A stretch of DNA of 64,000 nucleotides from Escherichia phage vB_EcoM_LMP25. Position 1 is the stretch's first letter; the number at the start of each line of letters is the position of its first letter. The stretch lies in the sequence record MK482688.1, one strand, 5' to 3'. Positions 20,618 to 22,160 of the stretch are shown here, piece by piece. Below the pieces are notes generated by a model that saw only the letters and a program-made list of their open reading frames with translations, did no database searches and was not told the origin of the DNA. The translations under genes were made by a program, and so were the position numbers.

Positions 20618-20643
20618 TAGTCTCAGCTACATTAAAATGAGAC
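20618..20643. repeat. Hairpin 1 (copy A): AGTCTCA-[GCTACATTAAAA]-TGAGACT
   Basis: Perfect 7-bp inverted repeat; loop shared with 22007-22032 while the stem sequence differs with compensating changes. Confidence 0.7.
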
Positions 20644-20650
20644 TTACCTT

Positions 20651-20684
20651 TTTAAAAGGTCTTTAAACAGGGTCTTTTAATAAG
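20651..20684. repeat. Box B (34 bp, TTAAAAGGTCTTTAAACAGGGTCTTTTAATAAGG), copy 1
   Basis: Near-identical copy at 21917-21950 (one substitution). Confidence 0.8.
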
Positions 20685-20749
20685 GTAGTGTCAGGTTAGG
20701 TTAGGTGCGTTTTGGTAGGGTAGGGTAAGGTTCGGTAAGGTATGGGTGG
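20685..20749. repeat. GGTNN pentanucleotide-periodic tract 2
   Basis: taggt|taggt|gcgtt|ttggt|agggt|agggt|aaggt|tcggt|aaggt|atggg: 5-nt periodicity of GGT. Confidence 0.8.
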
Positions 20750-20777
20750 ATGGTAGTAGCCACGTTAAAAATCTACC
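20750..20777. repeat. Hairpin 2 (copy A): TGGTAG-[TAGCCACGTTAAAAAT]-CTACCA
   Basis: 6-bp inverted repeat; the counterpart at 22133-22160 has TGGCAG/CTGCCA (compensatory T>C and A>G). Confidence 0.7.
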
Positions 20778-20853
20778 AAGTTTCTAAAGAGTCTTCTGTT
20801 GAGGGTTCTTTACAAACAACTTAACAATCAACTAAAGTGTGGAGCTAAATGCT

Positions 20854-21441
20854 ATGAAACTGCTAAATATCAAAATCACTGGTACTCGTCCTTTCTTGAG
20901 CCATAACGATACGCTGTCAGACCCATTAAACCCCCTGACAAAATATCACAAGTCTCTGTCCAGTAAACGTAAAAAGACTGACGAAGACTATGCGCTCTTA
21001 GCAGAAAGCCAACTGGTAACTTCTTGCTACTACGATGAGCAGCTAGGTTTTGTTATGAACGGTGAGATGATTGAGGCTTGTATCAAGTCTGGTGCAAAAC
21101 TCAATAAACTTGGTAAGGTAATTGACCGAGCCATTATGCTGACAGATGTAGTCTTCCCAATGACTATCAAGAACTGTCCAGCAAACCCACAAGAACTTGC
21201 TAAGAATCCAGACTTTATCTATGCTAAGTCTGTTAAGATTGGTACAGCACGAGTTATGAGCTACCGTCCAATCTTCCGTGACTGGTCTGTAGAGTTCGGT
21301 TTGATGTTCGATGAAGAGCAAATCACCAAAGAAGAACTCTTGATGGTTCTGGAAAATGCTGGTAACCTTTGTGGTGTAGGTGATTGGCGTCCACGCTTTG
21401 GTCGTTTTTCTGTAGAAGTTATTTCAGAAGGTAACGTTTAA
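20854..21441 (+). CDS. Hypothetical protein (first gene of the repeat-flanked cassette)
   Basis: ORF 20839..21441; start preferred at the ATG at 20854 (GGAG RBS about 10 nt upstream). No recognisable motif. Confidence 0.45.
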
Positions 21442-21443
21442 TT

Positions 21444-21884
21444 ATGAATACAAAAGCATTAGCAGCAAAGTTTAGTTACGGTGACACTGTATCACATTCT
21501 GAGATGGATACCTTCTTAGGTATTGTGAAGCCAACTTATCAAGGTGACATTGTTAAGTACGAAGATGAAATGAAGGCTTATGCACTTACACGACTAAACC
21601 GACTTGAGAAGTTTATTGAAAAGCTTCTTAAAGAAGAGAAGATTTATCTGGTTGCTTCAATGGGTGTTGGTTATCGTGTTGTTGAACCTAAGCATCAAGC
21701 AACTATTGCAAAACGTAAAATGTCTGGTAAGATTGGTCGAGCTTTAAAGCAAGCTACTCAAGCGATTGAGAATGTGAACACTATGGCACTTAGTCACCAA
21801 GAACGTTCACGACTGATTGAACAGCAAAATCACTTAGCTGCTATGAAAGCTAATATTAACAAGCAACGCAGAAAACCTTTCTAA
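21444..21884 (+). CDS. Hypothetical protein (second cassette gene; basic C-terminus)
   Basis: 146-aa ORF immediately after the previous gene; lysine/arginine-rich C-terminal helix. Confidence 0.45.
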   Translation: MNTKALAAKFSYGDTVSHSEMDTFLGIVKPTYQGDIVKYEDEMKAYALTRLNRLEKFIEKLLKEEKIYLVASMGVGYRVVEPKHQATIAKRKMSGKIGRALKQATQAIENVNTMALSHQERSRLIEQQNHLAAMKANINKQRRKPF

Positions 21885-21896
21885 GTTGACTAGGTA

Positions 21897-21917
21897 GCCT
21901 CTTCGGAGGCTCCTTTT
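21897..21917 (+). terminator. Intrinsic terminator GCCTC-TTCG-GAGGC followed by TCCTTTTT
   Basis: GC stem with TTCG tetraloop and T-run directly after the 21884 stop. Confidence 0.55.
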
Positions 21918-21950
21918 TAAAAGGTCTTTAAACAGGGTCTTTTAACAAGG
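21917..21950. repeat. Box B, copy 2
   Basis: TTAAAAGGTCTTTAAACAGGGTCTTTTAACAAGG. Confidence 0.8.
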
Positions 21951-22003
21951 CTTAGCTTGGTTAGGTATGGTAAGGTGGTGTTTGGTGTTGTAAGGTATGG
22001 GTA
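21951..22003. repeat. GGTNN pentanucleotide-periodic tract 3
   Basis: gttag|gtatg|gtaag|gtggt|gtttg|gtgtt|gtaag|gtatg. Confidence 0.75.
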
Positions 22004-22006
22004 GTT

Positions 22007-22032
22007 AATCGGAGCTACATAAAAATTCGATT
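22007..22032. repeat. Hairpin 1 (copy B): AATCGGA-[GCTACATAAAAA]-TTCGATT
   Basis: 7-bp stem with one G-T pair; loop conserved with 20618-20643. Confidence 0.7.
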
Positions 22033-22036
22033 ACAT

Positions 22037-22074
22037 CACTTAAGAGTCTTTTAAGAGGGTTTTTAAGTGAGGTG
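22037..22074. repeat. Box A, copy 2
   Basis: CACTTAAGAGTCTTTTAAGAGGGTTTTTAAGTGAGGTG. Confidence 0.8.
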
Positions 22075-22130
22075 TGGCACAGTAATGTTAGGTAGGGTCA
22101 GGTCAGGTCAGGTGAGGTAATGTATGGAAG
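22075..22130. repeat. GGTNN pentanucleotide-periodic tract 4
   Basis: aggta|gggtc|aggtc|aggtc|aggtg|aggta|atgta|tgg. Confidence 0.75.
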
Positions 22131-22132
22131 GA

Positions 22133-22160
22133 TGGCAGTAGCCTTATAAAAAATCTGCCA
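22133..22160. repeat. Hairpin 2 (copy B): TGGCAG-[TAGCCTTATAAAAAAT]-CTGCCA
   Basis: Compensatory stem changes relative to 20750-20777. Confidence 0.7.

What the first reader, a model, noticed from the sequence alone, without database searches (positions are those of the whole stretch)
20618..22160. Hairpins after each GGT tract keep the loop but swap the stem with compensatory changes
Hairpin 1: AGTCTCA-GCTACATTAAAA-TGAGACT (20618-20643) versus AATCGGA-GCTACATAAAAA-TTCGATT (22007-22032). Hairpin 2: TGGTAG-TAGCCACGTTAAAAAT-CTACCA (20750-20777) versus TGGCAG-TAGCCTTATAAAAAAT-CTGCCA (22133-22160). Stems differ but stay complementary while the loops (AGCYAC..TAAAAAT) are conserved. That is the signature of selection on structure, so these are functional hairpins (RNA elements or protein-recognised DNA cruciforms), not random palindromes. 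Only the first (20618) is followed by a T-run.
Basis: seen in the sequence. Interest (0 to 1): 0.8.

Follow-up and report, generated by a model that had tools for sequence, protein, structure and literature searches.

The report
Pseudoknot tails of phage VIPR guide RNAs
The four hairpins are real, conserved RNA structures: each is one stem of the 3' pseudoknot "tail" on a guide RNA of a VIPR system, a phage RNA-guided gene-silencing system first described in two 2026 preprints, so the finding is correct but already explained.

Summary
The window is a Felixounavirus, 100% identical to phage LMP34. The flagged hairpins exist; two coordinates are off by one. They lie in two intergenic regions flanking a two-gene cassette. 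The 195-aa protein is 191/195 identical to the SUSP1 Vipr protein (PDB 36pp). The 146-aa protein is 145/146 identical to SUSP1 vap1. The "GGT tracts" are strict pentamer arrays (GGY-NN) of 10-15 repeats, the guide regions of four vrRNAs. Across related phages their length changes only in steps of 5 nt.

Each hairpin is stem S2 of an H-type pseudoknot. The supposedly conserved loop carries the second strand of a 4-bp stem S1, which covaries with the bases just before the hairpin: GTAG/CTAC, GTGG/CCAC, AAGG/CCTT. Covariation across 25 distinct tails is strong. One window tail is identical to the SUSP1 vrRNA1 tail, whose pseudoknot was seen by cryo-EM capping the RNA's 3' end.

Under the published 1-nt-skip rule, the four guides match an E. 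coli phage satellite (27/30, 18/20, 20/22, 18/24).

The hairpins are not terminators or cruciforms. Verdict: already known. Small new leads are the covarying 17-19-bp "box" hairpins flanking every vrRNA, which may be processing sites, and a fixed positional order of tail types.

The parts
20441..20468 (+). sigma-70-type promoter (TTGACA-16-TATACT) driving vr1, vr2, vipr and vap1
   Evidence: 11 of 12 consensus matches. Its function is inferred.
20499..20537 (+). box A hairpin (19 bp including G.U pairs) immediately 5' of vrRNA1
   Evidence: 17 aligned pairs, 94.9% paired, 6 pairs with changes on both sides.
20536..20610 (+). vrRNA1 guide: 15 GGY-NN pentamer repeats
   Evidence: Predicted target is the satellite tape-measure gene, 27/30 NN matches.
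20611..20645 (+). vrRNA1 3' tail pseudoknot (type 1). S1 is 20613-20616 with 20627-20630.
20647..20685 (+). box B hairpin (17 bp with one U.U mismatch) between vrRNA1 and vrRNA2
20684..20743 (+). vrRNA2 guide: 12 GGY-NN repeats
   Evidence: Best match is the satellite tape-measure gene: 18/24 overall, 17/18 over nine consecutive repeats.
20744..20778 (+). vrRNA2 3' tail pseudoknot (type 3), identical in sequence to the SUSP1 vrRNA1 tail. S1 is 20746-20749 with 20760-20763.
   Evidence: The cryo-EM of this pseudoknot is cited from bioRxiv 10.64898/2026.04.26.720927.
20785..20812 (+). third, shorter box-like hairpin (12 bp) between the vrRNA2 tail and the vipr ribosome-binding site
20854..21441 (+). 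vipr gene (195 aa, RAMP-family guide-RNA-binding protein)
   Evidence: 191/195 identical to PDB 36pp 'SUSP1 Vipr protein', E = 6e-128. H17, E71, M72, R138, C173, D177, W178 and R179 are conserved.
21444..21884 (+). vap1 accessory gene (146 aa)
   Evidence: 145/146 identical to the SUSP1 protein in the same position (ALH47068.1). The preprint names the role.
21896..21911 (+). intrinsic terminator-like hairpin after vap1. Its T-run overlaps the 5' arm of the next box B.
21912..21950 (+). box B hairpin 5' of vrRNA3
21949..21998 (+). vrRNA3 guide: 10 GGY-NN repeats
   Evidence: There are 18/20 NN matches between the satellite tape-measure and baseplate genes.
21999..22033 (+). vrRNA3 3' tail pseudoknot (type 2). 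S1 is 22001-22004 with 22015-22018.
22034..22072 (+). box A hairpin between vrRNA3 and vrRNA4
22071..22125 (+). vrRNA4 guide: 11 GGY-NN repeats
   Evidence: There are 20/22 NN matches in a hypothetical gene of the L033-type satellite.
22126..22160 (+). vrRNA4 3' tail pseudoknot (type 4). S1 is 22128-22131 (AAGG) with 22142-22145 (CCTT).
22160..22206 (+). AT-rich 13-bp hairpin followed by a T-run, a possible end of the downstream array. It overlaps the promoter-like site 22179-22207 of the next gene.
   Evidence: (I2). Its function is inferred.

Best explanation
The region is a type II VIPR (Viral Interference Programmable Repeat) locus. Four vrRNA genes, two on each side, flank vipr and vap1.

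Each vrRNA has two parts. The first is a tract of GGY-NN pentamers. One Vipr protomer binds each repeat, sequesters the GGY bases and presents the NN bases. The NN bases pair with double-stranded DNA while skipping every third target base. The second part is a roughly 35-nt 3' tail.

The tail folds as an H-type pseudoknot. S1 is 4 bp and forms between the bases just after the last repeat and the hairpin 'loop'. L1 is 1-2 nt. L3 is an A-rich strand of 7-9 nt.

Shown here: membership of the family, the pseudoknot covariation, the pentamer register, and predicted targets in an E. coli satellite of this phage group.

Inferred: the pseudoknot fixes the 3' boundary and register of the Vipr filament and protects the RNA's 3' end. 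The stems differ between vrRNAs so that tandem copies in one precursor fold locally. The box hairpins between units are where the precursor is cut.
For: Identity of the locus:
- The window matches Felixounavirus genomes at 100%.
- The Vipr homolog is 191/195 identical to PDB 36pp, with RNA-contact residues conserved.
- vap1 is 145/146 identical to the SUSP1 protein.
- L019 is SUSP1 itself and shows the same unit architecture, with one unit upstream and three downstream, as the preprint reports.

Guide tracts:
- Pentamer composition is G 0.79, G 0.96, T 0.88, N, N.
- 66 of 69 distinct tracts fall in one length class modulo 5.

Tail structure:
- S1 is 100% paired, with 3 of 4 pairs changed on both sides.
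- S2 has 6 of 8 pairs changed on both sides.
- No shuffle (0 of 500) reaches the observed covariation score, and slid controls collapse.
- A G.U pair in the type 2 stem becomes G-C or A-U in variants.
- The vr2 tail is identical to the SUSP1 vrRNA1 tail, which was resolved by cryo-EM.

Targets:
- 1-nt-skip matches in satellites are 27/30, 18/20 and 20/22, and 17/18 over nine repeats of vr2.
- Background maxima in non-satellite DNA are about 0.63-0.70.

Published description of the system.
Against: Nothing in this window was measured. Expression, processing and Vipr binding are transferred from SUSP1.

The downstream pair of vrRNAs sits behind a terminator-like hairpin with no strong promoter of its own. 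Their expression would need read-through, though SUSP1's downstream vrRNAs are detected by sRNA-seq.

The role of the pseudoknot beyond 'capping' has not been tested, even in the preprints.

The covariation rests on about five independent tail types, not on 25 independent events.
Confidence: 0.93

Rival explanations
1. The hairpins are intrinsic (Rho-independent) terminators or attenuators in the leader of the two-gene operon, perhaps controlled by a protein bound to the GGT tract, as TRAP controls the trp leader.
For: The first hairpin is followed by CCTTTTT. The period-5 triplet array resembles a TRAP-type binding site. The units lie between a strong promoter and the genes.
Against: Only one of the four hairpins has a T-run, and that run is the paired 5' arm of the next box hairpin. 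The terminator scan finds only the 21896 hairpin. Stems are short and AT-rich. Satellite vrRNAs carry the same tail followed by a separate canonical terminator. The pseudoknot pairing S1 is unexplained by a terminator.
Confidence: 0.03
2. The hairpins are DNA-level elements: cruciforms, iterons or partition sites recognised by a DNA-binding protein. GenBank annotates part of this region as a direct repeat (wV8 DR_4) or as a 'possible binding site of StbAB' (KhF3).
For: Annotations exist in wV8 and KhF3. Repeats occur in both intergenic regions, and copy number varies between phages.
Against: Invariant G.U/U.G pairs in the box hairpins, and a G.U pair in the type 2 stem, would be A.C mismatches on the other strand. 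A pseudoknot cannot form in a cruciform. The 5-nt period does not fit the duplex helical repeat. All units share the orientation of transcription. The published RNA and cryo-EM data concern an identical tail. No paper supports the StbAB note.
Confidence: 0.02
3. The pseudoknots are autonomous cis-regulatory RNAs, such as riboswitch-like elements, RNase-protection elements or translational operators for vipr, and are unrelated to guide function.
For: The H-type pseudoknot with an A-rich third loop resembles small riboswitch aptamers such as preQ1-I (from memory). The type 3 tail lies about 75 nt upstream of the vipr start.
Against: There is no Rfam match, even at E <= 10. Tails also occur downstream of the operon and in satellites that have no vipr. 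They always follow a guide tract in fixed register.
Confidence: 0.02

Closest known systems
SUSP1 type II VIPR system (vrRNA + Vipr + vap1); bioRxiv 10.64898/2026.04.26.720920 and 10.64898/2026.04.26.720927; PDB 36pp
   Same: Vipr is 98% identical and vap1 99% identical. The GGY/NN pentamer guides, box hairpins and tail types are the same. The vr2 tail is identical to the SUSP1 vrRNA1 tail. Predicted targets fall in the same kind of E. coli satellite.
   Different: Array layout is 2 + 2 vrRNAs here, against 1 + 3 in SUSP1. The guide NN sequences differ, so the target sites differ. The host phage genus is Felixounavirus rather than Suspvirus.
CRISPR crRNA (spacer plus repeat-derived handle) with Cas7/Cas5/Cas6 RAMP proteins
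   Same: A variable guide is capped by a conserved structured element. A RAMP-fold protein oligomerises along the RNA. Arrays are transcribed as precursors. These points come from the preprints.
   Different: The guide is non-contiguous, with 2 of every 5 nt pairing. There is no adaptation module. The 3' element is a pseudoknot rather than a repeat hairpin. The system is encoded by a phage and aimed at a satellite.
TRAP-trp leader RNA (11 (G/U)AG triplets with 2-3-nt spacers)
   Same: A protein oligomer reads a conserved triplet at about 5-nt periodicity, with free spacer bases. This is from general knowledge.
   Different: TRAP is a closed 11-mer ring that regulates attenuation. Vipr forms an open helical filament and uses the spacer bases to read DNA. 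The proteins are not homologous.
Small H-type pseudoknots with an A-rich third loop (for example the preQ1-I riboswitch)
   Same: Topology is S1-L1-S2-L2-S1'-L3-S2', with a 1-2-nt L1 and an A-rich L3 opposite a short S1.
   Different: There is no Rfam match, and stem lengths and context differ. The resemblance is recalled from memory and is not a membership claim.

Membership tests
VIPR system (type II, SUSP1 clade) | Vipr protein: a minimal RAMP/RRM protein with G-loop and thumb that binds GGY | tested here: met
   191/195 identical to PDB 36pp, E = 6e-128. H17, E71, M72, R138, C173, D177, W178 and R179 are all conserved; confident model with pLDDT 94.8.
VIPR system (type II, SUSP1 clade) | vap accessory gene adjacent to vipr | tested here: met
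   the 146-aa ORF 2 nt downstream of vipr is 145/146 identical to the SUSP1 protein in the same position. No Pfam domain was found.
VIPR system (type II, SUSP1 clade) | Flanking vrRNAs made of 9-16 tandem GGY/NN pentamers with hypervariable NN | tested here: met
   the window has 10-15 repeats per tract. Related loci mostly have 9-16 repeats, with one unit parsed at 18. GGY is conserved and NN is near-random. Tract lengths change in steps of 5.
VIPR system (type II, SUSP1 clade) | Conserved 3' tail folding into a pseudoknot | tested here: met
   both stems covary; the vr2 tail is identical to the SUSP1 vrRNA1 tail.
VIPR system (type II, SUSP1 clade) | Guides match natural targets under the 1-nt-skip (xNN) rule, in competing mobile elements | tested here: met
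   27/30, 18/20, 20/22 and 18/24 (17/18 over nine repeats), all inside an E. coli satellite that encodes tape-measure and baseplate genes.
VIPR system (type II, SUSP1 clade) | No self-targeting of the carrying genome | tested here: inconclusive
   the best self-matches in the 64-kb window are 0.68-0.83, which is the chance range for guides this short. Only 64 kb of the roughly 85-kb genome was available.
VIPR system (type II, SUSP1 clade) | vrRNAs are expressed, are about 100 nt long and co-purify with Vipr; the complex represses transcription | not testable with these tools
   Shown for SUSP1 in the preprint and transferred here by near-identity.
Intrinsic terminator | GC-rich stem-loop directly followed by a U-run | tested here: not met
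   none of the four tails is called. Only 21896-21911 qualifies. The T-run after 20644 is paired within box B.
Any Rfam RNA family (riboswitch, leader, sRNA) | A covariance-model match | tested here: not met
   no match near a gathering score across 19500-23000 at E <= 10.

The most novel reading that the evidence does not exclude
The 17-19-bp covarying 'box' hairpins flank every vrRNA, and the text of the preprints does not discuss them. They may be the maturation signal of type II VIPR arrays, cut by host RNase III or by Vipr itself acting like Cas6. The four mutually non-complementary tail stems follow a fixed positional order: type 1 is followed by box B, type 2 by box A, type 3 is last before vipr, and type 4 is last in the downstream array. 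That order may exist to keep tandem guides folding independently in one precursor.
Probability: 0.4. Interest if true: 0.4.

Novelty: already known. Interest (0 to 1): 0.3.

Why it matters
VIPR is a newly described kind of RNA-guided DNA recognition, proposed to be older than CRISPR. A reader with no tools picked out its guide-RNA tails from raw sequence, which shows the signal is visible. For the field, this window adds little beyond the preprints.

It does confirm that the locus is widespread. About 110 Felix O1-like phage records carry at least 80% of the region, where it is annotated only as hypothetical proteins, 'DR_4' or a 'StbAB site'. It gives four more natural guides with predicted satellite targets. 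It also points to the inter-guide box hairpins as the likely place to look for how these arrays are processed.

Tried and rejected
Before the PDB hit, several readings were considered and then dropped once the identity was established:
- a lambda nut-like antitermination site (boxA-like GGTCTTTAAACA, a GU-rich boxC and a boxB hairpin);
- a TRAP-like ring-protein binding site;
- an R-loop replication origin (a G-rich non-template strand behind a strong promoter);
- Chi-like or RecA-preferred GT-rich recombination hotspots;
- G-quadruplex or telomere-like repeats;
- an anti-Shine-Dalgarno or tRNA-CCA sponge;
- packaging signals near the ~600-bp terminal repeats.

Searches that returned nothing useful:
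- Rfam gave no match.
- Pfam found nothing for either protein.
- PHROGs placed both in 'unknown function' families.
- The Felix O1, wV8 and UAB_Phi87 genome papers do not describe these repeats.
- A first regex for tails failed and was replaced.
- The satellite guide pattern has no perfect match in the fetched loci.
- Satellite vrRNAs showed no above-chance match to the helper-phage window.
- Four of the six distant Vipr loci showed no period-5 array at my threshold.

Full report
**Observation**

The four hairpins are present. Exact coordinates are 20619-20644, 20751-20778, 22007-22032 and 22133-22160.

They lie in two non-coding stretches, about 20434-20853 and 21885-22251. These flank two genes of 195 and 146 codons.

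Perfect 6-bp hairpins of this loop size are common in the window, at about 3.3 per kb. The case therefore rests on conservation and covariation, not on the palindromes themselves.

**What the surrounding sequence is**

Repeat and HMM analysis shows four tandem units of 122-148 nt. Each unit has three parts:
- a 39-nt 'box' hairpin, in variant A or B;
- a GGT-rich tract;
- the flagged hairpin.

The window is a Felix O1-like phage, 100% identical to Escherichia phage vB_EcoM_LMP34. About 110 phage records carry at least 80% of the region. GenBank annotates it only as hypothetical proteins, 'DR_4' (wV8) or 'possible binding site of StbAB' (KhF3). The genome papers do not explain it.

In 20 related loci (L001-L021; L004 duplicates L001), the number of units varies from 1 to 3 on each side of the genes.

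The tract is a strict pentamer array. Position frequencies are G 0.79, G 0.96, T 0.88, then two nearly random bases. In 66 of 69 distinct units, tract length falls in a single class modulo 5, ranging from 48 to 85 nt.

Two distant phage contigs encode proteins only 37-39% identical to the 195-aa protein. They carry (GGTNN)n or (GGCNN)n arrays around the homologous gene.

**The hairpin is half of a pseudoknot**

Comparing the four tail types shows that the 'conserved loop' segment covaries with the four bases that lie 1-2 nt upstream of the hairpin. The pairs are GTAG/CTAC in types 1 and 2, GTGG/CCAC in type 3, and AAGG/CCTT in type 4.

All four types, plus satellite variants, align without gaps in one pairing register. 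On 25 distinct tails:
- S1 (4 bp) is paired in 100% of cells, with 3 pairs changed on both sides.
- 0 of 500 shuffles reach the observed covariation score.
- Sliding the partners by 1-3 columns drops pairing from 89% to 26-45%.

The type 2 stem holds a G.U pair that is G-C or A-U in variants. That fits an RNA on the + strand.

The topology is S1, then L1 of 1-2 nt, S2 of 6-7 bp, and an A-rich L3 of 7-9 nt. This is a classical H-type pseudoknot.

**Identification**

A profile of the 195-aa protein family had no Pfam domain among 520 homologs. It hit one PDB entry, 36pp 'SUSP1 Vipr protein'.

The window protein is 191/195 identical to it. It keeps the residues reported to hold the GGY bases: H17, R138, D177, W178 and R179. 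The 146-aa protein is 145/146 identical to SUSP1 vap1.

Two April 2026 preprints describe the system:
- VIPR systems consist of Vipr plus vrRNAs made of 9-16 GGY/NN repeats.
- One Vipr protomer binds each repeat.
- The NN bases pair with double-stranded DNA while skipping every third base.
- The complex silences transcription.
- That pseudoknot is supported by covariation in five tails.

Locus L019 is SUSP1 itself. My parse gives its vrRNA1 12 repeats, as published. Its tail is identical to the window's 20744-20778.

**Function in this phage**

I applied the published 1-nt-skip rule to satellites found in E. coli chromosomes. 153 of 5426 genomes carry a vrRNA-like element. Intact satellites of about 12 kb are in L032 and L033. 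The results are:

| Guide | Best match | Location in satellite |
|---|---|---|
| vr1 | 27/30 | tape-measure gene |
| vr3 | 18/20 | between tape-measure and baseplate genes |
| vr4 | 20/22 | hypothetical gene of the L033-type satellite |
| vr2 | 18/24 (17/18 over nine consecutive repeats) | tape-measure gene |

In loci without the satellite body (L028, L030, L031), the best scores are 0.63-0.70. In the window itself they are 0.68-0.83. This reproduces the preprint's conclusion that this clade targets a satellite that parasitises the phage.

**How the hairpins most likely work**

Shown elsewhere: the pseudoknot sits at the 3' end of the Vipr filament. The 3'-proximal protomers are the best ordered, and R-loop formation appears to proceed from 3' to 5'.

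Inferred here: the tail defines the 3' boundary and register of the filament, since it starts in phase with the last pentamer. It probably also protects the 3' end.

The stems differ between the four tail types, and the types follow a fixed order. Type 1 is followed by box B in all but one case (a hybrid box in SUSP1). Type 2 is always followed by box A. Type 3 is always last before vipr. Type 4 is always last downstream. I infer that distinct stems keep tandem copies in one precursor from mispairing.

**Rivals**

Terminator: only one tail is followed by a T-run, and that run is the paired 5' arm of box B. Satellite vrRNAs have the same tail plus a separate canonical terminator.

DNA cruciform or iteron: this is incompatible with the pseudoknot, with the invariant G.U pairs, and with the single orientation of all units.

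Autonomous riboswitch: there is no Rfam match, and tails always follow a guide tract.

**Beyond the preprints**

The box hairpins have 17 aligned pairs, are 94.9% paired, and show 6 pairs with changes on both sides. Three invariant G.U/U.G pairs exist only on the + strand RNA.

A box hairpin precedes every vrRNA, and a shorter one follows the last upstream vrRNA. Unit lengths minus the box (88-108 nt in SUSP1) fit the reported vrRNA size of about 100 nt. Full units (127-147 nt) do not. The boxes are therefore probably removed.

The text of the preprints does not mention them: the words 'stem', 'leader' and 'RNase' have no occurrences. Their role as a processing signal is a hypothesis.

**Verdict**

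The feature is an already-described element, the vrRNA 3' pseudoknot tail of a type II VIPR system, in a phage whose Vipr is 98% identical to the published model system.

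Noticed in passing
window 20499-20537, 20647-20685, 20785-20812, 21912-21950, 22034-22072: Box hairpins of 17-19 bp (12 bp for the third) flank every vrRNA. Variants A and B covary in the same register and keep invariant G.U pairs. They are not discussed in the text of the VIPR preprints and are candidate precursor-processing sites.
   Followed up: partly
window 53121-53149 (-), 56887-56920 (-), 52512-52535 (-), 3279-3303 (+): Box-like hairpin motifs (GGGCTTTCTAAGAGAGTCTTT and similar) recur in other intergenic spots. 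One lies just upstream of a minus-strand ORF start, and others lie in the ORF-poor 52-55 kb region. The motif may be a genome-wide RNA processing or regulatory hairpin rather than VIPR-specific.
   Followed up: partly
L029 13930-14135; L032 and L033, same region: E. coli satellites carry a single vrRNA gene with its own TTGACG-17-TATAAT promoter, a type 3-like tail and a canonical terminator. The satellites encode a serine recombinase, baseplate and tape-measure genes. No vipr-sized gene is annotated, so they would have to borrow the helper phage's Vipr. In L033 the tail stem carries a compensated change, GTAG/CTAC to GTCG/CGAC.
   Followed up: partly
L029 19869-19907: The best 1-nt-skip match of the satellite's own vrRNA (22/26) falls on a REP-like palindrome (GCCTGATAAGCATAGCGCATCAGGC) next to an IS621 copy. 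It does not fall on the phage or on another satellite. This could be chance or a real host or IS target.
   Followed up: no
L024 3060-3360 and 3801-4010; L027 2383-2470, 3065-3270, 3730-3830: Distant Vipr homologs (37-39% identity) are flanked by (GGCNN)n or (GGTNN)n arrays. These arrays end in a T-run rather than a SUSP1-type pseudoknot, and in L024 they are separated by different hairpins.
   Followed up: partly
L001 1817-1874 and 3210-3267; L002 1596-1606: Public annotations of this locus are misleading. wV8 labels parts of the vrRNAs 'DR_4'. KhF3 labels an 11-bp piece 'possible binding site of StbAB'. Most records show only hypothetical proteins.
   Followed up: yes
L001-L021: vrRNA copy number differs between close relatives: 1-3 upstream and 1-3 downstream. 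The order of box and tail types is fixed, and guide lengths change in 5-nt steps. Arrays therefore turn over quickly by unit duplication or loss and by repeat slippage.
   Followed up: partly
window 20287-20433: A 48-codon hydrophobic ORF (phrog_22006, unknown function) lies between the DNA ligase gene and the VIPR promoter.
   Followed up: no
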